Shown here one piece after another: positions 8,543-30,392 of a stretch of 64,000 nt of DNA (position 1 is its first letter; every line of letters begins with the position of its first letter). This DNA comes from Pseudomonadales bacterium (lineage in GTDB: Bacteria; Patescibacteriota; Microgenomatia; UBA1400; PJMF01): NCBI GenBank assembly GCA_020632265.1, contig JACKFW010000001.1:983272-1047271 (forward strand), written 5' to 3'. The position numbers and the translations under genes were made by a program. The notes below the pieces were generated by a model. That model made no database searches. It was not told where the DNA came from and saw nothing but the letters and a program-made list of their open reading frames with translations.

Positions 8543-10492
8543 TTAACTATTAATCAGTTTGTCGATGTCAAAATCACCGTTTAATACTCCTTCAAGAATA
8601 TCATCATCTACAACGATCCTTCTTTTTGGGGTAGTAGTTTTTTTGTTAAAATTATTTGTTGATTTATTATATTGATTATATTGATTATATTTTTCTGGTT
8701 CAGAGGTAATTTTAAGTAAATAGTTTGGAATATCTTCAATGAATCTACTTCTCATTGCAGATGTATTAGCCCCATATTGGAATCTGTTTCTAGAATACGT
8801 AAAATATAAATGAGATTTGGCACGAGTTATTCCTACATAACACAATCTTCTTTCTTCTTCCATCTGCTCATTATCCATCAGAGATCTTGAATGTGGCAAA
8901 AGGCCATCTTCCATGCCCACCATTAACACAACTTCGAACTCCAATCCCTTGGCAGAATGAAGGCTCATGAGGTTAACAGAATATTCATCTCCGTTAGTGT
9001 TGTTTTTATCTGCAAATTCATTATCTTGAATTAAGGAGATATTTTCTAAAAATTGATTAATATCATCAAATTGAGAGGCGACATTGATTAGCTCCTCAAC
9101 ATTTTCTTTGCGAGCAACATTTTCTTCAGAATCTCTTTTGAACTTATCAAGATATTCAGTTTCTTCGACTATTTTTTTGAGGACAGAAGAGACGTTATTA
9201 TTTGGCTCAAGCAATTTATCATTATTTTTTAGCCAATTCATAAAGTTGGAAAACCTTTTTTTTCCAAGTTTTAATATTCTTTGATAACTGACAATATCAG
9301 CTCTATTTTGTGAATATCTTAGGTAAGCAATTAAATCTTTTACTTCCTTTCTATCATAAAATTTTGTACCCCCAATTAATTTGTATGGTACTCCTCCTCC
9401 AATTAATGCCTCTTCGAACTCACGAGATTGAGCATTAGTTCTGTATAAAATTGCAATATTTCCATAATCATAATTTTTGCGATGAGTAATGACAAATTTT
9501 ACCACCTGTAATGCCTCACTTTTTCCTGAATTTGCCTCAAAACAGGTTATTTTGTTACCTGCTGGTTTTGTGGTCCAAAGTTTTAAAATAGGATGAGTGG
9601 TATTTTTTGAAATTATTTCAGTTGCAACGTCAAGAATGGTCTGATTTGAGCGATAGTTTTGTTCTAGTCGATACTCTTGAATATTTGGAAAACTACTTTT
9701 AAGTTGAAGCATATTTTTGTAATCAGCTCCTCTCCATGCATAAATACTTTGACAAAAGTCACCAACCACAAAAATGTTGTTTTGTGGTTGACTAAGAATT
9801 TTGGTTAATTCGTACTGAGCTTTGTTGGTATCTTGATACTCATCAACTAATACATGGTCAAACATGTTTTGATATTTCCTTTTAATTTCACTAGATTCGT
9901 TTAGTAATTGTAATGTTTTTGAAAGCAGGTCGTCAAAATCTACAGCAGAAGCTTTGAATAGTTCATGTTGGTAGATTTTGTAAACTCTAGCCACATGATT
10001 TTGAAAAGAGCCATTGGCAATATTTAAATAATCAGTATGTGAGAGCAATTCATTTTTAGCGTTTGAAATTGCAGCATGAACGGCTTTTATATTAAATTCA
10101 TCATTGTCAAAGTTGTATTCTTTATATATCTTTTTTAACAATGAAATTTGGTCAGACGAATCATAGATAACAAAATTTTGATGAAGTCCTATTTGATTTC
10201 CATCGATTCGCAAAATTTTGGCACAAAAACTATGAAATGTTCCGCTCCATGGCAATAAATGTCCAGTGAGTTTTTGAATACGCTCTTTTATTTCTTTAGC
10301 AGCCTTATTTGTAAAAGTTACAACTAATATGGAATAGGGAGAGACGTTTTTTTTCGAAATTAGCCAGGCAACTCTGTTAGTAAGAACAGTAGTTTTACCT
10401 GATCCAGCACCAGCTAGTACTACTGCTGGTCCATTTTCATGGATCACTGCTGTGGTTTGTTCTGGATTTAGTTTTTTAAGAGGCTCTAACAT
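8543..10492 (-). CDS. uvrD: UvrD/PcrA/Rep-family ATP-dependent DNA helicase
   Basis: Motif I AGAGSGKT, motif II VDEYQDTN, and the downstream helicase motifs through VGITRAK. Confidence 0.85.
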   Translation of the reverse strand: MLEPLKKLNPEQTTAVIHENGPAVVLAGAGSGKTTVLTNRVAWLISKKNVSPYSILVVTFTNKAAKEIKERIQKLTGHLLPWSGTFHSFCAKILRIDGNQIGLHQNFVIYDSSDQISLLKKIYKEYNFDNDEFNIKAVHAAISNAKNELLSHTDYLNIANGSFQNHVARVYKIYQHELFKASAVDFDDLLSKTLQLLNESSEIKRKYQNMFDHVLVDEYQDTNKAQYELTKILSQPQNNIFVVGDFCQSIYAWRGADYKNMLQLKSSFPNIQEYRLEQNYRSNQTILDVATEIISKNTTHPILKLWTTKPAGNKITCFEANSGKSEALQVVKFVITHRKNYDYGNIAILYRTNAQSREFEEALIGGGVPYKLIGGTKFYDRKEVKDLIAYLRYSQNRADIVSYQRILKLGKKRFSNFMNWLKNNDKLLEPNNNVSSVLKKIVEETEYLDKFKRDSEENVARKENVEELINVASQFDDINQFLENISLIQDNEFADKNNTNGDEYSVNLMSLHSAKGLEFEVVLMVGMEDGLLPHSRSLMDNEQMEEERRLCYVGITRAKSHLYFTYSRNRFQYGANTSAMRSRFIEDIPNYLLKITSEPEKYNQYNQYNKSTNNFNKKTTTPKRRIVVDDDILEGVLNGDFDIDKLINS

Positions 10493-19423: not shown

Positions 19424-20918
<1,495 letters not shown>

Positions 20919-22757: not shown

Positions 22758-23528
22758 TTAAATAATGCAATTTCTTTGACTGTAAATACCGTTTCTAGTT
22801 CTCACAATTGAAAATGTCGTGGCCGGTACTCCAATTATTTTAGCAATATCTCTTACTAAAGATCTAATATAAGTTCTCTTGGAAACAACCGCTGATAATT
22901 TTATAATCAATGAACTACGTGTTCCAAGTTTTTTGAAATTTTTGTTCCAATTATTAATGATTATTTCTTGTCTAAAATCTCCATTTACGAGAGAAAGTTT
23001 GTGGTTGATTTTATTAAGTAATTTTTTGTTTTCAATCCAATACGTGTTGATAAGTTTTAAGGAATCAATCTCAATATTATTAGATTTTATCTTAAAATTT
23101 TGTTGTTTTTTTGCCAAATCGAACCCAGATTTTCCTTTTACTCTTTGAGCAGAAAACTTGGGCTGAAGTTGTTTTTGAAAACCAATAAAGGATGGAATTA
23201 TAGATTCTAATTTTATTTTAATTTCTTCCAAGTTTAAATTGAAAGTTATAAGATTTGTTTGAAGTCCTAATAAGTCTAACGAATCAGTACTGACTCCAAA
23301 TAAAATTTCAAATTGATATATTTTTTTCCAATCAGAAAATTCTGCCTTTTTAAATCGATCATCTCCAGTTAAAACCACCACGACACCTTCAGCCATTGGA
23401 TCAAGAGTGCCTGTGTGAGTAGCTTTTAAGTCATTGTTGTTATTTGTTTTTGAAGCAATGAATTCTCCGGTTTTCTTTGCGAGCATGTGTGTGGATTCGC
23501 CTACTTTTTTCCAAACAGGGATAATCAT
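22758..23528 (-). CDS. truB: tRNA pseudouridine(55) synthase TruB
   Basis: HTGTLDPMAEGVVVVLTG catalytic-Asp motif; K.Y.FE..FG..TDS.D..G pattern. Confidence 0.7.
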   Translation of the reverse strand: MIIPVWKKVGESTHMLAKKTGEFIASKTNNNNDLKATHTGTLDPMAEGVVVVLTGDDRFKKAEFSDWKKIYQFEILFGVSTDSLDLLGLQTNLITFNLNLEEIKIKLESIIPSFIGFQKQLQPKFSAQRVKGKSGFDLAKKQQNFKIKSNNIEIDSLKLINTYWIENKKLLNKINHKLSLVNGDFRQEIIINNWNKNFKKLGTRSSLIIKLSAVVSKRTYIRSLVRDIAKIIGVPATTFSIVRTRNGIYSQRNCII

Positions 23529-24493
23529 GATAATTGATCAAAGTTGTTAAAAATTCCGATTTTATTAATTTCTTCAGCATAACTTTGTCTATTCAATGTA
23601 AAAAAACTTGGCAACTTTGGAACAAAGTCTGGGTTCAGACTGTAAGCTAAATCGGCATCTTCTTTTGCTAATTTGCCAAAATAAAGTTTGGTAAGATCGT
23701 AATTATTAGCTCTTAACCAAAGCCAAACATCGACCATACCTTCAAAATACACTAGATCTTTTGAAAATCCACCGGGTTTGCTTGTGTCTCTTAGTCCCCT
23801 TTTTTGTCGAAAAGTTACCGTCCAACATCTGTTGGGGTCATTAATATATTTACTAATTTTTTTAAAGGTTTCAGCAAATGAGTTGCTTTGAGCATATGTT
23901 ACTGCCAGATATCTGATAGCTGAAACATATGCGCTTTTGTGAGAATGTGGAATTATGGCATGCAATGTAGCAAGACCTTCTTCGGTTTTTAAATAATTAG
24001 AAAAACCAAATTGCTTTTTTCTTCTATACCAAGGTTGTTTTTCATAATTGATTTGTCTAATAGCATGCGTACCAATTTCATGGTAAACCATTCCCAATAA
24101 TCCCTCTTTTCTAAAAGTGACTGGTAATTTAAGTTTGATTGTATCTGCGTAAATACTTGTTCTAGAAACGAAAGATGAGGACCAAATAATATTATATTTT
24201 TTGTGAAGTTGATGCATGTTTAAAAATGTTTTGATTGTTTTTTCTGTATATGATTGTGTGATCAGAGGACCTTCCATCATAATTAGATCTTGTTCATTTC
24301 TACCCAAAAATGTTTTTTCTAGAATTTGATTCGCGAGTTGTATATGTTGTAAGCTTGGTTTTCCGTGATTATAAATTTTTTCATCGGAGGTTTCATTTTC
24401 ATATACAAATTGAGGATTATATGAATTATCAATGAAAAATTTCTCCTTTTCTTCATTTAAGTTAATGGGAATTAAATCTGTAATTAAACTCAT
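23525..24493 (-). CDS. DUF1704 'QEGLA-motif' family protein with HExxH zinc-binding motif
   Basis: YHEIGTHAIRQ (HExxH) and EEGLATLHA (QEGLA-like) motifs. The family is annotated as a partner of RimK-like ATP-grasp ligases. Start set at MSLITD (24493); the track ORF extends to 24550. Confidence 0.65.
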   Translation of the reverse strand: MSLITDLIPINLNEEKEKFFIDNSYNPQFVYENETSDEKIYNHGKPSLQHIQLANQILEKTFLGRNEQDLIMMEGPLITQSYTEKTIKTFLNMHQLHKKYNIIWSSSFVSRTSIYADTIKLKLPVTFRKEGLLGMVYHEIGTHAIRQINYEKQPWYRRKKQFGFSNYLKTEEGLATLHAIIPHSHKSAYVSAIRYLAVTYAQSNSFAETFKKISKYINDPNRCWTVTFRQKRGLRDTSKPGGFSKDLVYFEGMVDVWLWLRANNYDLTKLYFGKLAKEDADLAYSLNPDFVPKLPSFFTLNRQSYAEEINKIGIFNNFDQLS

Positions 24494-24497
24494 AACC

Positions 24498-25787
24498 TTA
24501 TTTTTCTTCCACGTCGCCAACCAAGAATCCTTGTAAATCCATTCGACCAAGTTCGATTTTGTGTTTGCTTTTATTTAATTTTTTAATAACTACCATAGCT
24601 GTGTTGAGCTTCTTTCCTTTTAATTTAAACTTAACTTGAACAACTGGAACTTTTCCTTCAATACTTTCTTGTTGTCTCCATAACAAATCATCGATGTCTA
24701 AAATTCCTAAATGATGAGCGTAATTTTCACTTATAGCAGATCGATATCTTCCGGTATTAACAAGTGCTTCTGTATCAAATCCTTTATTTTTGTCATCAAA
24801 AACTGTAATATGAGGTTTGGTTGGAATAACTTTCACTCCATTTTCAATGTCTTTTGTATCTGTAAAATTATGTGCAAATAGTGCTTGTGCAATTTTTACT
24901 CCATGTTTCGCGTCTCTAATTTCTAAACCCTCAATTCTTTCAAGTCTTTTTTTAAGACCTGCTTTATTGCAAAGTTGAATTGAAAGTCCTGGAAAACCAT
25001 TTAATTCTACTATCATTGGACCTTTTGCTTCATGAATGAATAAATCTGCACCCATAAAAATAAATCCTGCTGATTCAGCTGCTTTAACTGCGACTTCTAG
25101 AAGCTGATTCCATTGTGGAATTTGAATCCCAGAAACCTTTTTTCTGGTTCCTGGAAAATGCGTAATGATGCCAGATTTTCCATTAACACCATAAGTTGTG
25201 AGTCCAGTTGCCATATCTATACCTAGGCCGATTGCACCTTGATCTAGATTTGCTTTACCCCTGGATTTTTTGGTTGGAATTCGAGCCATTGCCATTACTG
25301 GGACACTGTTAAATACAATTATTCTAATATCTGGAGTTCCTTTGTACGAGTATTTTAACAAATCTGGGTGAGCTGGGATCATTTCTTCGACGATTGCTTT
25401 ATGGGTGCTACCCCAGGTGCTAAACTCACCATCTAGAATATTGTTTACATGAAGATTTAAATCTTCATCAGTGAGTATTTCCCCTTCAGAACTTTCCCAT
25501 TCAAGTTTGTTGGGTTTTTTATTTAAGATAACAATAATACCTTTTCCAGCACTTCCACTAGCAGGTTTGACTACGAACGGCACTGGAATAGTTTCCCAAT
25601 TAATATTATCTAAATCGTTTATTGATTCAAATGTATGAAAAACTTCTGCAGTTGGGATGTGACATTCGCGCAATAACTCTTTGGTTTTTAATTTTGAAAA
25701 ACCATAGGTTTTAGCAACATAAGGATTTTTTTTTGTGTATTTAAATCGAGCATTCATGCCCAATATATGAGAGGGTTTTATTGCCAT
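24498..25787 (-). CDS. Alpha-L-glutamate ligase-like (RimK-related) ATP-grasp protein
   Basis: ATP-grasp fold pattern: VVKPASGSAGKGI, LIEEMI-like hinge, MGADLFI...GPMIVELNGFPG. Confidence 0.7.
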   Translation of the reverse strand: MAIKPSHILGMNARFKYTKKNPYVAKTYGFSKLKTKELLRECHIPTAEVFHTFESINDLDNINWETIPVPFVVKPASGSAGKGIIVILNKKPNKLEWESSEGEILTDEDLNLHVNNILDGEFSTWGSTHKAIVEEMIPAHPDLLKYSYKGTPDIRIIVFNSVPVMAMARIPTKKSRGKANLDQGAIGLGIDMATGLTTYGVNGKSGIITHFPGTRKKVSGIQIPQWNQLLEVAVKAAESAGFIFMGADLFIHEAKGPMIVELNGFPGLSIQLCNKAGLKKRLERIEGLEIRDAKHGVKIAQALFAHNFTDTKDIENGVKVIPTKPHITVFDDKNKGFDTEALVNTGRYRSAISENYAHHLGILDIDDLLWRQQESIEGKVPVVQVKFKLKGKKLNTAMVVIKKLNKSKHKIELGRMDLQGFLVGDVEEK

Positions 25788-25796
25788 ATTTTTTCC

Positions 25797-26762
25797 CTAC
25801 TCTTCTTCAATAATTGACCTAAATCTTAATCTTTCGCTAACTCTTAGTCCTGCAAATTTACCAATGAGAATATTAATGAGTCCTGGAGCAAGTAATAATA
25901 GTTCAGGTTCTGATAAGGCTAATTTTTGAAGTGGTTCAAATTTAAGCAAAAATCCAGAAATTACTGCCAGGCCAATAGTTTCGATTGTTAATAATAAAGC
26001 CTGACTTTGTTTTGTTTTGGCTTGAGCATCCAAAAAGTTTTCGGCCAAAAGTACCAAAATTAAAATTGGAAAAATATTAACACTTAATAAAGAGATATAT
26101 TTTACAAATGGAGCAAGCATGAGAATCGAGAAAATACCTATGGAAACCATCCAGAGCATTAACGAAGTTCTTGGTAAATATGATAGTTTTGCCTTTTTAA
26201 GAATTTTTCTTGCTCCCATTGCAGTAACTGCAATTACTAAGAAAATAATTAAGCCTTCGATGACACCTGTAGAAACTAAAGCAACTGAAAGAACGGCTGG
26301 AATATAGATTCCAAAACCTCTCAAACCAATAATATGTCTTGATGCAGCAATAACTGAAGCAGCAAGTGGAAATAAAATAATTAGAACAATCACATTTACT
26401 TGTAATCCATTAGAAACTGCTAATCGAATTGAGTGTTGTAAAAAGTTATTCCAATTTAATTGATCAGGTGGATTTTCATCAAGATAAGTTTCAAGTTTTG
26501 TTTTTTGTTTACCACTAGTTTCGGTAATATCTTGATCCTTTTTTTCTTGAATTTTTTCAACCACAGCTGCTGAAGGAGACGCTAGTTTTGTGGAATCTGT
26601 AGCAGAGGCTTCAGTAGTTGCATCATCGGGGATAACTCCAATTTCAGTATTTATTTCAACATTCTCGAGCGATATTGCATGAACTTTTAAATTTACAAGC
26701 AAACTAGTTTTTAAGAAAAAAGCTAATAAAAATAACAAAAATAAATAATAAATATTTTTCAT
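25797..26762 (-). CDS. Signal-peptide plus 7TM membrane protein (third member of the ATP-grasp/QEGLA cassette)
   Basis: N-terminal signal peptide, about 100-aa acidic soluble segment, then 7 predicted TM helices. Gene order matches the conserved three-gene cassette. Confidence 0.5.
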   Translation of the reverse strand: MKNIYYLFLLFLLAFFLKTSLLVNLKVHAISLENVEINTEIGVIPDDATTEASATDSTKLASPSAAVVEKIQEKKDQDITETSGKQKTKLETYLDENPPDQLNWNNFLQHSIRLAVSNGLQVNVIVLIILFPLAASVIAASRHIIGLRGFGIYIPAVLSVALVSTGVIEGLIIFLVIAVTAMGARKILKKAKLSYLPRTSLMLWMVSIGIFSILMLAPFVKYISLLSVNIFPILILVLLAENFLDAQAKTKQSQALLLTIETIGLAVISGFLLKFEPLQKLALSEPELLLLAPGLINILIGKFAGLRVSERLRFRSIIEEE

Positions 26763-26797
26763 ATGTGTATTATACCTTAAATCATTACAGACAAGAA

Positions 26798-26839
26798 ATA
26801 TGCATTTGGAATCAAAAAATATGCATTTGGAATCAAAAA
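26798..26839 (+). repeat. Perfect 21-bp tandem direct repeat ATATGCATTTGGAATCAAAAA x2
   Basis: Seen directly, immediately upstream of the cassette's first gene (minus-strand start 26762). Confidence 0.8.
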
Positions 26840-26846
26840 ATATTTT

Positions 26847-27203
26847 TTAAAGTATTTTCTTGATGATTGAGTGGATGAAGCCAATTAAAAATGAAACAAA
26901 GATTAATGACCAAAATTGGCCCAAATGTGTTCCATAAATTATCATATTTTGAATGTGAAAACCAGGAACAAGATAGGTGCTTAGCCAAAGCAAAAAAACA
27001 TTGATAACACCTGAAAATAATCCCAATGTCACAACATTTACAGGTAAGAATAAAATTTTTAAAATTGGTCTAACCAATGAATATAGAATTGTTAAAACGA
27101 TGCTAGCAATTATTAAACTGAACAGACTATTAAATCCAATTGTTGGGAGAGCCCAGCTTAAAATTGCTAGGGTTATTCCCGTAATAATCACTGCTCTAAA
27201 CAT
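26847..27203 (-). CDS. DUF360 / phage holin family 4_2-like small membrane protein
   Basis: 118 aa, 4 TM segments; block VRPILKILFLPVNVVTLGLFSGVINVFLLWLSTYLVPGFHI matches the family consensus (VRPIL...TLGLF...LWL...VPGFH). Confidence 0.6.
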   Translation of the reverse strand: MFRAVIITGITLAILSWALPTIGFNSLFSLIIASIVLTILYSLVRPILKILFLPVNVVTLGLFSGVINVFLLWLSTYLVPGFHIQNMIIYGTHLGQFWSLIFVSFLIGFIHSIIKKIL

Positions 27204-27235: not shown

Positions 27236-28633
27236 CTAGGAGAACATTCCTTTTATTCGGCGTTTTTTGTGTTGATTTTGTGAAAATCTATGAGCTTCAT
27301 TTCTTATTTGCTGAACTAATTTGAGGGAGGGATCGTTTGCGTCTAGTTTAACAATATGATATTGAAGTCCCTTGAGGATCTCTTTTTTGTTATTTTTATC
27401 TTCCCACCTTGTCCAATTAATAATGGGCAGAATAAATCTGTCTGGATTTTTTGCAATTCCAATTATTGGGTTTTGCCAATTCCAGATTTGCAAAATTGTT
27501 CTCACTTGACCTTTGCCTCCATCAACAACAACTAAATTAGGAGCACTCCACTCGGGATGATTTTGTCTCCTGATAATGGCTTCTTTCATCATATGGTAGT
27601 CATTGGGCGTATTTAAAGTTTTAATGTTAAATAATCTATATTGAGAAGAATCGGGTTTCCCGTCAGTGAAGACAACCATTGAAACTGCCGAATTTGTTCC
27701 TTGGGTATTACTAACGTCGTAGCCTTCAATTCTTTTTAAAGGCAGTTTTTTTGGTAAACTAAGATATGTTGAAAGGATTTTTTGTAAATAAATAATTCCA
27801 TCTTCATTAATCTTATTTTTAAGTGCTTGGGTAGTTAGCTCTGGTTTAAGGCGATGAGATTTTTTAGTCACTTCATCGATCATTTTTAATTGATCTCTGA
27901 TGATAGCTGCTTCTTCATATTTTTCTAAGATGATGTTCTTATCCATCATTTTTTTGAGGTTTTTAGAAACTGTTTGTTTTTTTCCTTTTAAAAATAGAAT
28001 TAGCTGCTTAATATTTTTATTATATTTAGTCTGGGTAATTTCATTGATACATGATCCTGGACACAGATCTATATGATAGTAAAAACATGGTCTTGAGCCA
28101 CCATTACACCATGGAAATATTTTTCTAGCAATTTTTAAGACCTCTTGAGTTTTATATGCACTTGGAAATGGACCAAGAATTGTTCCTTTTGGTTTGGCAG
28201 AAATAATTTCTTTTTTTCTAATTGCTATGACTCTAGGAAATTCTTCATCAGTAATATGTATATAAAGCGGACTTTTATCATCTTTAAGTAAGATGTTGAA
28301 ATGTGGCTGATAAGTTCTTATTAACTCTGCTTCAGTAAGCAAAGCTTCTAATTCACTATCTAGAACCTTAAATTTTACTGCGTAGGCTGTAGAAACCATT
28401 TGCTTAATTCTGTTTGAAAGTTGGTTAAAATGGGTATAAGACTTAAGTCGGTTCTTGAGTTTCTTCGCTTTGCCTACGTACAGAACTTTGCCATTTTTGT
28501 TTGAGAACCAATACACTCCCGGTAACAAGGGTGATGACAACAGCACCGATTCCCAAATAAATGATTGCTTGAGGATCTTGGATCTGCTTGATAATTTCTG
28601 GGCCACTTTTAATGGATTGCGTGCTTGATTCAT
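27236..28633 (-). CDS. uvrC: Excinuclease ABC subunit C (short form lacking C-terminal HhH)
   Basis: GIY-YIG (PGVYWFSNKNGKVLYVGKAKKLKNRLKSY), Cys motif CFYYHIDLCPGSC, UVR motif (YEEAAIIRDQL), RNase H-like endonuclease block (EGYDVSNTQGTNSAVSMVVF). The track start overlaps the upstream gene by about 190 nt; the true start may be internal. Confidence 0.8.
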   Translation of the reverse strand: MNQARNPLKVAQKLSSRSKILKQSFIWESVLLSSPLLPGVYWFSNKNGKVLYVGKAKKLKNRLKSYTHFNQLSNRIKQMVSTAYAVKFKVLDSELEALLTEAELIRTYQPHFNILLKDDKSPLYIHITDEEFPRVIAIRKKEIISAKPKGTILGPFPSAYKTQEVLKIARKIFPWCNGGSRPCFYYHIDLCPGSCINEITQTKYNKNIKQLILFLKGKKQTVSKNLKKMMDKNIILEKYEEAAIIRDQLKMIDEVTKKSHRLKPELTTQALKNKINEDGIIYLQKILSTYLSLPKKLPLKRIEGYDVSNTQGTNSAVSMVVFTDGKPDSSQYRLFNIKTLNTPNDYHMMKEAIIRRQNHPEWSAPNLVVVDGGKGQVRTILQIWNWQNPIIGIAKNPDRFILPIINWTRWEDKNNKKEILKGLQYHIVKLDANDPSLKLVQQIRNEAHRFSQNQHKKRRIKGMFS

Positions 28634-30392
28634 ATAATAAATTACCAGTTAACACATCTTTATAGTTTACATTGATTAAAGAATCTTTAGGAATAGAAAT
28701 CTTTTTTGTAAAAAATGTAACATTATATTTGATTGTTTGAAATGGAAGTATTGTTTTAATAATTGTTGAATCATTAAATTCAACATTAACTTCACTATCT
28801 AAAGATGTTATTAATGCCTGCATATCATACCATGCCTGACCTGTATCATTGCGCACGTACATTTCATACATTCCTGGAATTGGAATAAAAAGTAGCTTTT
28901 TTTGTACCATTTTGGTAGAAATTTGAGGTGTAATTTGAGGAAATAGCTCACCAATGCTAACTTCGACATCTTTGGTGTCTTCACTTTGAATTTTATATGA
29001 TCCGGCTGGATGCGGTAAGTTGCTTGATACTCCATTAATTGCAAACACAATATGATTTAAATCAAATTGATGAAAATAATCTATTCCTCCAGTAGTGTCT
29101 CCCCAGGTTGGGTCAATTGGTATCCAAATATTTTTTGTACTATCATAATATTCTGGCCATGAATGCAAAATGTCTCCTTCAAAACTTAGTGGTCTTAAAA
29201 CTGAATTTTCTGTATATGCGTATCCTATTAATCTGCGCGCAGGAATATTATTTGCTCTCGCCATGGCAATGAAAGTATCTGTAAATTCTTGACAAACCGC
29301 CAAATTTGGATTTTCAAATGCTTTGACTGCCCCCAGTCTTGAAATTGTATTTATATCAAGCTCATCTCTGGAATAATTTAGTGTATCGATTATGTAATTG
29401 TAGATTTGTTCAGGAGTTTTGTACTGTTGCGCTTTTTCTATAATTGATGAATCGTTACTTTCCCAAAATTTTAAGCTTTTTGTGTGATCGTTTGATGGAA
29501 TAGAAAATGGAATATTTGGATTAGGATCTAAGGTTATTTTTGCTTCGGCGGTTAAATGAACCACTGTTGCAGCACTTGCTGGGATTGTGTAAGTTGCAAT
29601 CCAATTACCATCTAGATCCTTTTTCATTTCTGTGGGCAAAGGGTCAAGTGCGTGGTAATGCATTTTTTGGAATGGAGTATCTGGAGGCAATGATATTTGC
29701 GCTATTGCCGGTGAGTTAGTGGGATTTTCTAAGCTATATCTTAGTGTCATTTTATAGACTTGCTCTTGACCATAAATTGCAGAAATTGTTTCTCCATTTG
29801 GACGCAGAAAAATTGAAGTTACTCCGTTTGGTTTGAAATCAACACTGAGTGGTTCTGGACTGACTCGAACTGGGATTGAAAAATAGGAAGGAGTTATTAA
29901 TGTCGTTTTATTTTCACTAAAGCTGTGTGCATCACCAAGCTGTGGAATATGAACTTCAAGAACTCTCCCAGCTATTGTTGCAAGATCTGGGTTGTTATAT
30001 TCAATTAAAAAATTTCTTGATTTTCCTTGACCAACAACTTCGTCTTCAAAGGTAATACCGATACTTGTTCCAGTTTCATTAGTTACTATATTTGCTGGAA
30101 TTGTTTTACCACTGGTATTTTTAATTTCAATATTATTAAGACCAAAATAACTGGTTTTTAAAGCATATTGTTTTAGATAAAAAGCTGGGGTGTTGTTTGT
30201 AATTTTAATATTGTGCGAGACTTTAGTCATGCCTTGAAGATCAACAGTATATGTTGAGTTAATTGTAGTGATGAAGTTTTCATTTTCTTGCTGATTGTTA
30301 ATTTCAGTTTGGGCAAAAATTAATTGAGGTTGAGCAACAAAAATGAATGATAAAAAAATAACTAGAATTACTCTAAGTTTAAACATATACAT
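28443..30392 (-). CDS. Secreted, C-terminally membrane-anchored transglutaminase-like protein
   Basis: Signal peptide; transglutaminase-like core Cys (AVCQEFTDTFIAMARANNIPARRLIGYAY), His (HSWPEYY) and Asp (WIPIDPTWGD) blocks; C-terminal TM helix. Confidence 0.7.
   Translation of the reverse strand: MYMFKLRVILVIFLSFIFVAQPQLIFAQTEINNQQENENFITTINSTYTVDLQGMTKVSHNIKITNNTPAFYLKQYALKTSYFGLNNIEIKNTSGKTIPANIVTNETGTSIGITFEDEVVGQGKSRNFLIEYNNPDLATIAGRVLEVHIPQLGDAHSFSENKTTLITPSYFSIPVRVSPEPLSVDFKPNGVTSIFLRPNGETISAIYGQEQVYKMTLRYSLENPTNSPAIAQISLPPDTPFQKMHYHALDPLPTEMKKDLDGNWIATYTIPASAATVVHLTAEAKITLDPNPNIPFSIPSNDHTKSLKFWESNDSSIIEKAQQYKTPEQIYNYIIDTLNYSRDELDINTISRLGAVKAFENPNLAVCQEFTDTFIAMARANNIPARRLIGYAYTENSVLRPLSFEGDILHSWPEYYDSTKNIWIPIDPTWGDTTGGIDYFHQFDLNHIVFAINGVSSNLPHPAGSYKIQSEDTKDVEVSIGELFPQITPQISTKMVQKKLLFIPIPGMYEMYVRNDTGQAWYDMQALITSLDSEVNVEFNDSTIIKTILPFQTIKYNVTFFTKKISIPKDSLINVNYKDVLTGNLLYESSTQSIKSGPEIIKQIQDPQAIIYLGIGAVVITLVTGSVLVLKQKWQSSVRRQSEETQEPT

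What the first reader, a model, noticed from the sequence alone, without database searches (positions are those of the whole stretch)
23525..26846. ATP-grasp ligase / DUF1704 HExxH 'QEGLA' protein / 7TM protein cassette with a 21-bp tandem repeat in its promoter
Three co-oriented, tightly packed genes, followed by truB. They are a RimK-like alpha-L-glutamate-ligase-like ATP-grasp protein, a DUF1704 protein with an intact HExxH (YHEIGTH) and QEGLA-like (EEGLATL) motif, and a signal-peptide plus 7TM protein. As far as I recall (hedged), the vertebrate tubulin detyrosinase MATCAP is a DUF1704-type metallopeptidase, while tubulin tyrosine ligase is an ATP-grasp enzyme. This bacterial pair therefore looks like a ligase/peptidase couple that could add and remove C-terminal amino acids (Glu/Tyr-type) on an unknown substrate, with the 7TM partner as target or anchor. 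The cassette is conserved in bacteria but functionally uncharacterised. The perfect tandem ATATGCATTTGGAATCAAAAA x2 at 26798-26839 is a candidate operator for it.
Basis: partly seen in the sequence, partly recalled or inferred. Interest (0 to 1): 0.6.

Follow-up and report, generated by a model that had tools for sequence, protein, structure and literature searches.

The report
Membrane-linked glutamate ligase and MATCAP peptidase cassette
A tiny candidate-phyla-radiation (CPR/Patescibacteria) bacterium carries a conserved three-gene module: a seven-helix membrane protein ending in glutamates, a RimK-like amino-acid ligase with a dead retroviral-type protease domain, and a bacterial cousin of the human tubulin-trimming enzyme MATCAP, which together look like a system that adds and removes glutamates on a protein tail.

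Summary
On the minus strand, 7TM (26762-25797), ATP-grasp (25787-24498) and MATCAP/DUF1704 (24493-23525) are packed 9 and 4 nt apart and overlap truB.

Corrections:
- The metal motif is HExxxH (HEIGTH), not HExxH.
- The peptidase starts at ATG 24493.
- The 7TM protein lacks the inactive-transglutaminase domain.

The module is a Patescibacteria variant of the Pseudomonas rloB/rloC system.

New findings:
1. The ligase carries a C-terminal retropepsin-fold domain. It links transitively to RimB/RloA (PF05618), with the catalytic Asp replaced by Asn.
2. The peptidase model matches human MATCAP over its whole length (TM 0.85), with identical HEIGTH and TEEGLA motifs.
3. The gene order is kept in about 66 loci. 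Ligase and MATCAP are one fused protein in at least 120 clusters from Gracilibacteria, Peregrinibacteria and related MAGs.
4. The 7TM partner's predicted cytoplasmic C-terminus ends in EE(E...) in 49/60 distinct tails, against 9/698 background ORFs.

Best reading: a reversible C-terminal glutamylation module, with the 7TM tail as the leading acceptor candidate. That step is inferred, not shown.

The 21-bp tandem repeat is real but absent from 15 related loci inspected, so a conserved operator is unsupported.

Verdict: new variant of a known kind.

The parts
26792..26843 (.). 21-bp tandem repeat, 2.5 copies. It lies between the stop of the upstream holin_4_2-like gene (26847) and the -35 position of the cassette promoter.
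   Evidence: TRF score 97. Two exact 21-mers against 0.06 expected. Identical in a second sample, L089. Absent from 15 relatives, whose closest intergenic regions are 42-43 bp against 84 bp here. No significant RNA fold, z = 0.53.
26769..26774 (-). TATAAT -10 box, 6 nt upstream of the ATG of the 7TM gene (GGTATAAT-ACACAT-ATG). It is the likely promoter of a leaderless cassette transcript.
   Evidence: A (G)GTATAAT, TGTTATAAT or near-variant (GGTATACT in L014) lies 6-8 nt before the ATG in all 15 relatives inspected. The same arrangement occurs at 10 or more other genes of the window.
25797..26762 (-). RloB-like 7TM membrane protein, 321 aa. It has a signal peptide, a roughly 90-aa acidic extracellular segment, seven TM helices, and a cytoplasmic tail RVSERLRFRSIIEEE.
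   Evidence: PF14402 at 84.5 bits. 29% identity to Legionella RloB across the TM region. Hydropathy and positive-inside topology.
25800..25808 (-). Three terminal Glu codons (GAA GAA GAG) of the 7TM protein. They encode the candidate acceptor or docking tail.
   Evidence: Translation. 49/60 distinct orthologous tails end in EE and 56/60 in E, with 2-5 terminal Glu. EE is kept in 11/11 loci where the stop codon is 20 nt or more from the next start. Background is 9/698.
24498..25787 (-). RloC-like, RimK-related ATP-grasp amidoligase, 429 aa.
   Evidence: PF14397 4.8e-56 and TIGR02291 1.6e-72. 36% identity to Legionella RloC. D..E-x-N and K/G-rich ATP-grasp columns are nearly invariant in 26 sequences.
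24513..24836 (-). C-terminal retropepsin-fold domain of the ligase (residues about 318-425). Asn344 (codon 24756-24758) sits in place of the catalytic Asp, giving ALVNTGRYRS.
   Evidence: In Foldseek the 28 significant hits (E <= 0.001) and nearly all of the top 50 are retropepsin-like: Ddi1 2.8e-5, DUF785 2pma, RloA 9g58/9g59. Distant relatives carry DTGA and hit PF05618 above the gathering score. The position is N in 56/68, D in 4 and H in 4. The RloA D48N mutant is inactive (PMC12239564).
23525..24493 (-). MATCAP-family (PF08014/DUF1704) zinc metallocarboxypeptidase homologue, 322 aa, with no signal peptide.
   Evidence: pLDDT 88.8. Human MATCAP at TM 0.85, rmsd 2.6. Profile against 7z5g at 1.4e-57.
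24065..24082 (-). HEIGTH, the HExxxH zinc-binding and catalytic motif (H138, E139, H143).
   Evidence: Invariant in 16 homologues. Identical in human MATCAP. Mutating the equivalent Glu in human TMCP1 (E281A) kills activity (PMC10499314).
23969..23986 (-). TEEGLA, the EEG motif that supplies the putative third metal ligand.
   Evidence: Invariant T-E-E-G, and A175. Identical TEEGLASLHS in human MATCAP. The EEG motif is described in PMC10499314.

Best explanation
The cassette is the Patescibacteria (CPR) version of the RloB/RloC-type module. It combines a 7TM membrane protein with a cytoplasmic RimK-related ATP-grasp amidoligase.

In this version the RimB/RloA-type retropepsin has been fused to the ligase and has lost its catalytic Asp (Asn344). 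A cytoplasmic MATCAP-family zinc carboxypeptidase is encoded immediately downstream, and in other CPR classes it is fused to the ligase.

Proposed mechanism:
1. The three genes, probably with truB, are transcribed from a leaderless-type TATAAT promoter.
2. The ligase uses ATP to add alpha-linked glutamates to a C-terminal acidic tail.
3. The inactive retropepsin domain holds that acidic tail, or dimerises and docks the ligase.
4. The MATCAP homologue trims the added residues from the C-terminus.
5. The leading acceptor candidate is the cytoplasmic ...RFRSIIEEE C-terminus of the 7TM protein itself. Tail length would then set the state of that envelope protein.

This parallels RimK/RimB on ribosomal protein S6 and TTLL/MATCAP on tubulin tails.

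Shown here by computation: the family and fold assignments, the D-to-N change, the operon conservation, the fusions, the EE tail and its predicted cytoplasmic side.

Inferred: glutamate as the added residue, carboxypeptidase activity, the identity of the acceptor, the role of the dead protease domain, and the physiological output.

My confidence is about 0.85 for 'Rlo-like ligase plus peptidase module acting on one substrate' and about 0.35 for 'the 7TM tail is that substrate'.
For: Gene order and fusions:
- The order 7TM, ligase(+RVP), MATCAP is kept in about 66 of about 70 loci with enough flank, down to 29-31% MATCAP identity. This includes Woesebacteria loci that lack the TGase, uvrC and holin genes found upstream elsewhere.
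- The fusion ATP-grasp, degenerate RVP, MATCAP is found as 757-820 aa proteins in at least 120 clusters. All seven contexts inspected have a 7TM (six of them PKD-7TM) gene upstream, directly adjacent in six; their other neighbours differ from the window's.
- A 7TM-ligase fusion occurs on a Halobacterium plasmid.

Homology to Rlo:
- The ligase is 36% identical to Legionella RloC and the 7TM protein 29% to RloB. The Legionella plasmid carries a canonical rloABC operon.
- In Pseudomonas, rloB/rloC deletions suppress loss of the polyGlu-cleaving RloA proteases (PMC12239564).

Peptidase:
- It shows whole-length fold and motif identity with human MATCAP.
- The MATCAP/TMCP enzymes also shorten polyglutamate chains (PMC10499314).

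Dead protease domain:
- Fold, transitive PF05618 membership, and NTG in place of DTG.

Acceptor candidate:
- The tail ends in EE in 49/60 distinct tails and in E in 56/60, and in all 7 partners of the fused form.
- Background is 9/698.
- EE is kept in 11/11 loci where it cannot act as the downstream Shine-Dalgarno.
- The tail is predicted to be cytoplasmic.
- Canonical RloB, whose ligase has no RVP domain and which has no MATCAP neighbour, lacks the EE tail.
- The four loci with His at the RVP site all have Arg-terminal tails.
Against: - No biochemical data exist for any CPR member.
- Amino-acid specificity of RloC-type ligases is unknown. TIGR02291 and TIGR02421 scores are below the equivalog cut-offs.
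- Canonical RloB has no acidic tail and RloA is periplasmic. In the characterised relatives the product therefore probably ends up outside the cytoplasm.
- In the Halobacterium fusion the 7TM C-terminus is not free.
- A few divergent loci lack a terminal Glu: L073 ...EKKS, and L067-71 ...ER/KR.
- In short-gap loci the Glu codons double as the Shine-Dalgarno of the ligase gene. Part of the conservation may therefore act at the nucleotide level.
- The His/Arg covariation is a single clade.
- Proteobacterial MATCAP homologues sit next to GshB-like ligases and an FGase, which hints at small-peptide substrates.
Confidence: 0.5

Rival explanations
1. The ligase makes a free poly-alpha-glutamate or another short peptide, or modifies a small molecule. 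The 7TM protein exports or presents this product at the cell surface. The MATCAP homologue only degrades or recycles product on the cytoplasmic side. The EE tail of the 7TM protein is then a docking site or primer mimic for the dead retropepsin domain rather than the substrate.
For: - In Pseudomonas the polyGlu-cleaving RloA is secreted, and loss of rloB or rloC suppresses its absence (PMC12239564).
- RimK can make free poly-alpha-Glu (same paper).
- Canonical RloB lacks an acidic tail.
- The covalent 7TM-ligase fusion in Halobacterium leaves no free tail.
- Proteobacterial MATCAP homologues neighbour a GshB-like ligase and an FGase.
Against: - The peptidase and the retropepsin-like domain are both cytoplasmic here, with no signal peptides.
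- MATCAP-family enzymes are known as protein-tail carboxypeptidases.
- The EE terminus co-occurs with the RVP and MATCAP modules across deep CPR lineages.
- There is no evidence that PF14402 is a transporter.
Confidence: 0.3
2. The module acts on cell-envelope precursors. The 'sugar-transfer associated' ATP-grasp ligates an amino acid onto a lipid-linked glycan or peptidoglycan-type precursor. The 7TM protein flips or scaffolds it. The peptidase edits the stem peptide.
For: - The Pfam name and description of PF14397.
- Rlo mutants show cell-shape, hypo-osmotic and beta-lactam phenotypes.
- LytR_cpsA_psr and sugar epimerase genes lie a few genes downstream in L003.
- An extracellular transglutaminase-core protein is syntenic in about 50 loci.
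Against: - Those neighbours are separated from the cassette by housekeeping genes (uvrC, truB, mnmA) and are lost in Woesebacteria and Gracilibacteria loci that keep the core.
- The nearest characterised ligase relatives (RimK) and both peptidase types (RimB/RloA, MATCAP) act on alpha-peptide C-terminal Glu chains.
Confidence: 0.1
3. The acceptor is a soluble cytoplasmic protein such as ribosomal protein S6. This would be a RimK/RimB-like system merely anchored at the membrane.
For: - The family relationship to RimK.
- RimB-type domain ancestry.
- Extra RimK-like genes sit next to the cassette in many relatives.
Against: - Strict linkage with the 7TM gene, including fusions.
- The extra RimK-like genes are variable and are better candidates for S6 modification.
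- S6 was not examined here.
Confidence: 0.07
4. The 21-bp tandem repeat is a functional operator or activator site that controls the cassette.
For: - Two exact copies plus a partial third, spaced at two helical turns, sit from about -35 to -85 relative to the start.
- The repeat is far above chance.
- It is identical in a second sample.
Against: - It is absent from all 15 related loci inspected. The closest have a 42-43 bp intergenic region, so this looks like a recent local duplication that includes the ancestral TCCAAA(A)TG segment.
- There is no other copy in 64 kb.
- There is no adjacent regulator gene and no RNA structure.
Confidence: 0.15

Closest known systems
rloABC operon of Pseudomonas aeruginosa and other Gammaproteobacteria (Lormand et al. 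2025, PMC12239564)
   Same: - A 7TM_transglut membrane protein is followed by a TIGR02291-type ATP-grasp ligase. Identities are 29% and 36% to the Legionella RloB and RloC.
- A retropepsin-lineage module is associated with the ligase.
- The acceptor is unknown in both systems.
   Different: - There is no secreted RloA. The retropepsin module is fused to the ligase, is cytoplasmic, and carries Asn instead of the catalytic Asp.
- There is no inactive transglutaminase domain on the 7TM protein.
- A MATCAP-family metallopeptidase has been added.
- The 7TM protein ends in EE(E), unlike RloB.
RimK / RimB / ribosomal protein S6 (RpsF) C-terminal polyglutamylation
   Same: - A RimK-related ATP-grasp ligase is paired with a RimB-lineage domain.
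- The candidate acceptor ends in Glu-Glu, like S6 (established knowledge).
- Both enzymes are cytoplasmic.
   Different: - The ligase belongs to PF14397/TIGR02291, not to the RimK equivalog (TIGR00768 at only 41 bits).
- The candidate acceptor is a membrane protein.
- The hydrolase is a zinc carboxypeptidase rather than an aspartic endopeptidase.
Vertebrate MATCAP/TMCP1 (KIAA0895L) and TMCP2 with TTL/TTLL ligases on tubulin tails
   Same: - The catalytic domain has the same fold over its whole length (TM 0.85).
- The HEIGTH and TEEGLA motifs are identical.
- A MATCAP peptidase is paired with an ATP-grasp amino-acid ligase.
- The substrates are acidic C-terminal tails. TMCPs also deglutamylate.
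   Different: - The microtubule-binding extension is absent: the match covers residues 139-461 of the 471-residue chain 7z6s_C.
- The ligase is RimK/RloC-type, not TTL-type.
- There is no tubulin.
- Genes are linked in an operon or fused, not dispersed.
Proteobacterial 'QEGLA motif protein' TIGR02421
   Same: - The same Pfam family and motifs.
- It also neighbours an ATP-grasp ligase in the one locus examined (L082).
   Different: - The proteobacterial proteins are about 600 aa with an extra N-terminal region.
- Their partners are a GshB-like ligase plus an FGase.
- The window protein scores 86 bits against a 339-bit cut-off.

Membership tests
MATCAP / PF08014 (DUF1704) | Match to the Pfam model above the gathering score | tested here: met
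   84.4 bits against a cut-off of 27
MATCAP / PF08014 (DUF1704) | HExxxH motif plus EEG third-ligand motif | tested here: met
   HEIGTH and TEEGLA are invariant in 16 homologues and identical in human MATCAP. The motif definition comes from PMC10499314.
MATCAP / PF08014 (DUF1704) | Fold of the MATCAP catalytic domain | tested here: met
   Foldseek against 7z5g: E 1e-18, TM 0.85, rmsd 2.6 A over about 330 columns. The next family scores E > 0.03.
MATCAP / PF08014 (DUF1704) | Carboxypeptidase activity on C-terminal Tyr/Glu of a protein tail | not testable with these tools
   Needs an enzyme assay
TIGR02421 QEGLA equivalog (proteobacterial) | Score above the curated cut-off | tested here: not met
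   85.7 bits against 338.65. The window protein is a relative, not an equivalog.
RloC / TIGR02291 alpha-L-glutamate ligase-like | Score above the curated cut-off | tested here: not met
   244 bits against 314. Canonical Legionella RloC scores 436. PF14397 is met at 190 bits.
RloC / TIGR02291 alpha-L-glutamate ligase-like | Encoded directly downstream of an RloB-type 7TM gene | tested here: met
   A 9-nt gap in the window. The order is conserved in about 66 loci.
RloB (NF052267; PF14400 + PF14402) | 7TM_transglut domain | tested here: met
   PF14402 at 84.5 bits. 29% identity to Legionella RloB.
RloB (NF052267; PF14400 + PF14402) | N-terminal periplasmic inactive transglutaminase domain | tested here: not met
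   Only profile positions 312-507 are matched. The N-terminal 120 aa give no transglutaminase hit. Gracilibacteria and Peregrinibacteria versions carry PKD domains instead.
rloABC operon | Separate secreted RloA retropepsin gene | tested here: not met
   No such ORF lies in or next to the cassette. The retropepsin-like module is the ligase C-terminus and has no signal peptide.
RimB/RloA retropepsins (PF05618) | Retropepsin fold | tested here: met
   In Foldseek the significant hits are all retropepsin-like, including DUF785 2pma and RloA 9g58/9g59, at TM 0.5-0.56.
RimB/RloA retropepsins (PF05618) | Direct sequence-model match | tested here: not met
   - No PF05618 hit. The best hits are PF13975 at E 0.017 and PF13650 at 0.082.
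- The domain HMM against RloA gives 3-6 bits.
- hhalign gives E 0.03-0.05.
- Only transitive support exists: the window domain reaches DTGA relatives at E 1e-9 to 1e-4, and most of those tested reach PF05618 at or above GA 27, scoring 22-38 bits.
RimB/RloA retropepsins (PF05618) | Catalytic Asp in D-T/S-G | tested here: not met
   NTG in the window. The position is N in 56/68 orthologues. It aligns on the DTG of RloA and of DTGA relatives.
RimK-type C-terminal glutamylation of a protein | Acceptor with a free C-terminal Glu-Glu in the same compartment as the ligase | tested here: met
   The 7TM tail ...IIEEE is predicted to be cytoplasmic and is conserved. This shows a candidate acceptor only.
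RimK-type C-terminal glutamylation of a protein | ATP-dependent addition of Glu to that acceptor | not testable with these tools
   Needs biochemistry or mass spectrometry
Operator / transcription-factor site (tandem repeat) | Conservation at orthologous promoters, or recurrence elsewhere in the genome | tested here: not met
   Absent from 15 relatives. No other copy in the window at up to 3 mismatches.
Known anti-phage defence systems (PADLOC) | Any model match | tested here: not met
   No hits for five proteins

The most novel reading that the evidence does not exclude
The cytoplasmic C-terminus of the 7TM envelope protein is reversibly polyglutamylated. This would be a bacterial membrane-protein counterpart of the tubulin-tail code. 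The ligase/MATCAP pairing seen in eukaryotes would then have a prokaryotic antecedent, and the still-unknown substrate logic of Rlo systems would become directly testable.
Probability: 0.3. Interest if true: 0.8.

Novelty: new variant of a known kind. Interest (0 to 1): 0.6.

Why it matters
1. It ties an uncharacterised, very widespread CPR gene module to two experimentally studied systems: Rlo/RimK in Pseudomonas and MATCAP/TMCP in animals.

2. It shows that the hydrolase partner of RloC-type ligases is interchangeable, either a retropepsin or a MATCAP enzyme. Both known enzyme types cut glutamate chains, which argues that the product is a C-terminal Glu chain.

3. It offers a concrete acceptor that a single mass-spectrometry experiment could test: the EE tail of the 7TM partner. 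The 2025 Rlo study left this question explicitly open.

4. It gives MATCAP a bacterial context in which it is genetically wedded to an ATP-grasp amino-acid ligase. That bears on the origin of the eukaryotic tail-modification enzymes.

5. The natural D-to-N retropepsin domain is a candidate pseudo-enzyme that reads acidic tails.

Tried and rejected
- A profile of the ligase C-terminal domain against PDB sequences gave only noise.
I re-ran it with database homologues.
- hhalign and HMM comparisons against two RloA sequences were weak. Family placement therefore rests on fold plus transitive homology.
- The ligase has no close solved structure.
- Iyer et al. 2009, which probably first described these neighbourhoods, is not held. 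I could not check what was already predicted there.
- Literature searches for DUF1704, QEGLA and MATCAP+ATP-grasp found nothing on the bacterial module.
- I tested whether the EE tail is merely the Shine-Dalgarno of the next gene. I rejected this as the sole cause, because EE is kept in 11/11 loci with a gap of 20 nt or more, and separate GGAGG-like sites exist in gaps of 9-12 nt. It remains a confounder where gaps are 1-5 nt.
- I tested whether the intergenic repeat forms a terminator or hairpin. It does not, z = 0.53; the only terminator-like site the pattern scan finds near it lies inside the upstream gene (26908-26921), not in the intergenic region.
- The standard -35/-10 scan does not flag the cassette promoter. 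That promoter is inferred from conservation alone.
- There are no PADLOC defence matches.
- There is no second ATP-grasp, MATCAP or 7TM paralogue in the window.
- I rejected the syntenic transglutaminase-core, uvrC and holin_4_2 genes as core parts. Woesebacteria, Gracilibacteria and Peregrinibacteria loci keep the module without them.

Full report
**Observation.** The features are all present on the minus strand.
- The 7TM gene (26762-25797) is followed after 9 nt by the ATP-grasp gene (25787-24498).
- After 4 more nt comes the DUF1704 gene, which overlaps truB (23528-22758) by ATGA.
- The DUF1704 gene's real start is ATG 24493. That gives a 322-aa product identical to a deposited protein.
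- Downstream lie mnmA and a 16S rRNA gene.

Family scans confirm the three identities.
- 7TM protein: PF14402 at 1.1e-23, and the C-terminal half of the RloB model NF052267.
- Ligase: PF14397 at 4.8e-56 and TIGR02291 at 1.6e-72, which is below the equivalog cut-off.
- Peptidase: PF08014 'MATCAP' at 1e-23 and TIGR02421 at 3.5e-24, far below cut-off.

The 21-bp repeat has 2.5 copies at 26792-26843, with a TRF score of 97. The 21-mer occurs twice against 0.06 expected.

Two details of the finding need correction. YHEIGTH is an HExxxH motif, not HExxH. The 7TM protein lacks the inactive transglutaminase domain typical of its family.

**Origin.** Homologues are almost all from Patescibacteria/CPR metagenome-assembled genomes. 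The 'Pseudomonadales' labels are evidently mislabels, for example isolate HK-STAS-PATE-16. The identical protein sits on a 1.08-Mb contig.

**The peptidase.**
- An AlphaFold2 model (pLDDT 88.8) matches human MATCAP 7z5g/7z6s over its whole length: E 1e-18, TM 0.85, rmsd 2.6 A, 27% identity. The next families, all gluzincins, score E > 0.03.
- A 16-sequence profile hits the MATCAP chain at 1.4e-57. The HEIGTH, TEEGLASLHS and KRGxTDTSxPGxFSKDxVY blocks are shared.
- Nicot et al. 2023 (PMC10499314) define HExxxH plus an EEG third-ligand motif for this family. They show that E281A is inactive and that TMCP1/2 also shorten polyglutamate chains.
- The bacterial protein has no signal peptide. It corresponds only to the catalytic domain: the match covers residues 139-461 of the 471-residue 7z6s chain.

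**The ligase and its hidden domain.** Residues 1-306 are the ATP-grasp, 36% identical to RloC of a canonical rloABC operon on a Legionella adelaidensis plasmid.

Residues about 318-425 form a further domain that is conserved in all orthologues.
- Its model (pLDDT 79) gives retropepsin-like Foldseek hits: all 28 significant ones (E <= 0.001) and nearly all of the top 50. These include Ddi1 RVP at 2.8e-5, DUF785 Lpg0085, RloA 9g58, RloA2 9g59 and the HIV/HTLV proteases.
- Direct sequence models fail. There is no PF05618 hit, the domain HMM gives 3-6 bits against RloA, and hhalign gives E 0.03-0.05, though colinear.
- An exhaustive search of 1.84 billion representatives finds only 38 relatives. 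The distant ones carry an intact DTGA motif ('AKVDTGAWRTSID') and are short, possibly stand-alone, proteins or joined to ATP-grasp (PF14397 or RimK-type) sequence.
- Most of those tested reach PF05618, the RimB/RloA family, at or above its gathering score.

The window domain is therefore a derivative of a RimB/RloA-type retropepsin. Asn344 (ALVNTGRYRS) sits at the catalytic Asp position. Across orthologues that position is N in 56/68, D in 4 and H in 4. The RloA D48N mutant is catalytically dead (PMC12239564), so the domain is most likely a pseudo-protease.

**Conservation.** I scanned one genome per species and retrieved 80 loci. I then searched their six-frame ORFs with iterated profiles of the window proteins.
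- The order 7TM, ligase(+RVP), MATCAP is kept in about 66 loci, down to 29-31% MATCAP identity.
- Most Pacebacteria/Paceibacterota-labelled loci share a larger block: transglutaminase-core, uvrC, holin_4_2, cassette, 0-3 extra RimK-like genes, truB, mnmA.
- Woesebacteria loci keep only the three-gene core.
- In Gracilibacteria and Peregrinibacteria the ligase, a degenerate RVP segment and MATCAP form one 757-820-aa protein, found in at least 120 clusters at 90% identity.
- All seven contexts inspected have a 7TM (six of them PKD-7TM) gene upstream, directly adjacent in six, among neighbours unrelated to the window's.
- A Halobacterium plasmid encodes a 7TM-ligase fusion.

These Rosetta-stone fusions and the flank-independent linkage show that the three components work together.

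**The 7TM tail.** Hydropathy and the positive-inside rule give an N-out/C-in topology, which places RVSERLRFRSIIEEE in the cytoplasm.
- Across loci, 56/60 distinct tails end in E and 49/60 in EE, with 2-5 terminal glutamates.
- All seven partners of the fused enzyme end in EE, although the preceding residues differ...RHDVEE...MHSEEE...KNIEE.
- Only 9/698 other long ORFs in the same loci end in EE.
- Glu codons can double as the Shine-Dalgarno of the next gene, so I stratified by gap length. EE is kept in 11/11 loci where the stop is 20 nt or more from the ligase start. Loci with gaps of 9-12 nt have their own GGAGG-like site.
- Canonical RloB proteins (Legionella, Aeromonas) do not end in Glu. 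Their ligase has no RVP domain and they have no MATCAP neighbour.
- The four loci with His at the RVP 'catalytic' position all have Arg-terminal tails. This is suggestive, but it is a single clade.

**Mechanism.** The nearest characterised ligases (RimK) extend a C-terminal Glu-Glu. Both hydrolase lineages linked to this ligase family cut glutamate chains: RimB/RloA, and here MATCAP.

I therefore propose a cytoplasmic write/erase cycle of C-terminal glutamylation. The dead retropepsin domain would act as tail clamp or dimeriser, and the 7TM tail is the leading acceptor candidate.

The main rival is synthesis of a free or exported Glu-rich product, with the 7TM protein as exporter or anchor and the EE tail as a docking site. 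That rival fits the periplasmic RloA of Proteobacteria and the Halobacterium fusion.

Envelope-precursor modification, or a soluble acceptor such as S6, are less likely.

**Promoter and repeat.**
- A TATAAT box lies 6 nt before the 7TM start codon.
- A (G)GTATAAT, TGTTATAAT or near-variant lies 6-8 nt before the ATG in all 15 relatives inspected.
- Ten or more other genes of the window show the same arrangement. This indicates leaderless transcripts.
- The repeat lies upstream of this box and reaches the -35 position.
- It is identical in a second sample but absent from every relative. The closest relatives have intergenic regions of 42-43 bp against 84 bp here.
- The repeat unit contains the ancestral TCCAAA(A)TG segment, which points to a recent local duplication.
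- There is no other copy in the window and no RNA structure.
- A strain-specific regulatory role cannot be excluded, but nothing supports a conserved operator.

**Novelty and verdict.** The 7TM plus ligase pair belongs to a known kind, Rlo. The MATCAP-coupled, pseudo-retropepsin-bearing, EE-tailed CPR form is a new variant.
- I found no description of it in the searchable literature.
- The 2009 comparative-genomics paper that may mention these neighbourhoods could not be read.
- It is not a known defence system.
- Interest is 0.6. The finding is in silico only, but it gives a sharp, cheap experiment on an open question.

Noticed in passing
window 19426-20917 (-): A complete 16S rRNA gene lies directly downstream of mnmA. 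The Rfam scan of the whole 64 kb found no 23S or 5S gene and only one tRNA, so the rRNA genes appear to be unlinked in this genome.
   Followed up: no
window start codons at 10492, 26762, 27203, 35890, 35942, 54618, 61462, 62151, 63282 and others: An exact TATAAT lies 5-9 nt upstream of the start codon of ten or more long ORFs. This implies frequent leaderless mRNAs in this Patescibacteria genome. A comparable box (GGTATAAT, TGTTATAAT or a near-variant) at N6-8 before the ATG precedes the 7TM gene in all 15 relatives inspected.
   Followed up: partly
window 28443-30392 (-): An extracellular, membrane-anchored transglutaminase-core protein with an apparently intact Cys/His/Asp site (CQEF, HSWPEYY, DPTWGD) lies two genes upstream. 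The order TGase, uvrC, holin_4_2, 7TM is kept in about 50 loci. That is intriguing because this 7TM family is usually fused to an inactive transglutaminase. Woesebacteria and Gracilibacteria loci lack it.
   Followed up: partly
L001 8974-10683; L009, L011, L023, L066, L072 (between MATCAP and truB/mnmA): Relatives carry from none to three additional RimK-like ATP-grasp genes inserted right after the MATCAP gene. The window has none. They may be further ligases of the same pathway, or the true S6 modifiers.
   Followed up: no
L067, L068, L069, L071: In one divergent clade the residue at the retropepsin 'catalytic' position is His instead of Asn. The 7TM tails end in ...ER/...KR instead of ...EE. 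The GAGAGG codons also form the Shine-Dalgarno of the ligase gene.
   Followed up: partly
L088 5170-6924 (Halobacterium sp. DL1 plasmid CP007061): An unannotated 584-aa ORF fuses an RloB-type 7TM domain directly to a TIGR02291-type ATP-grasp. The system therefore reaches haloarchaea.
   Followed up: partly
L082 5884-9591 (Porticoccaceae MAG): A proteobacterial 632-aa QEGLA/MATCAP protein is flanked by an N-formylglutamate-amidohydrolase-like gene and a glutathione-synthetase-like ATP-grasp. This is a second, different MATCAP-ligase pairing.
   Followed up: no
L022 8954-10072, L039 9996-11312, L063 2664-4364: Second, longer MATCAP-family paralogues lie next to the cassette in some relatives.
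   Followed up: no
L092 3061-4947 (Peregrinibacteria CP064978): The PKD and 7TM parts are called as separate genes. A 23S_rRNA_IVP-family gene sits between the 7TM gene and the ligase-MATCAP fusion. This may be a disrupted or rearranged locus.
   Followed up: no
window 27236-28633 (-): The mechanical uvrC ORF (465 aa) overlaps the transglutaminase gene by about 190 nt. Gene calls in an identical contig start uvrC later, giving 387 aa. The long ORF start is probably not used.
   Followed up: no
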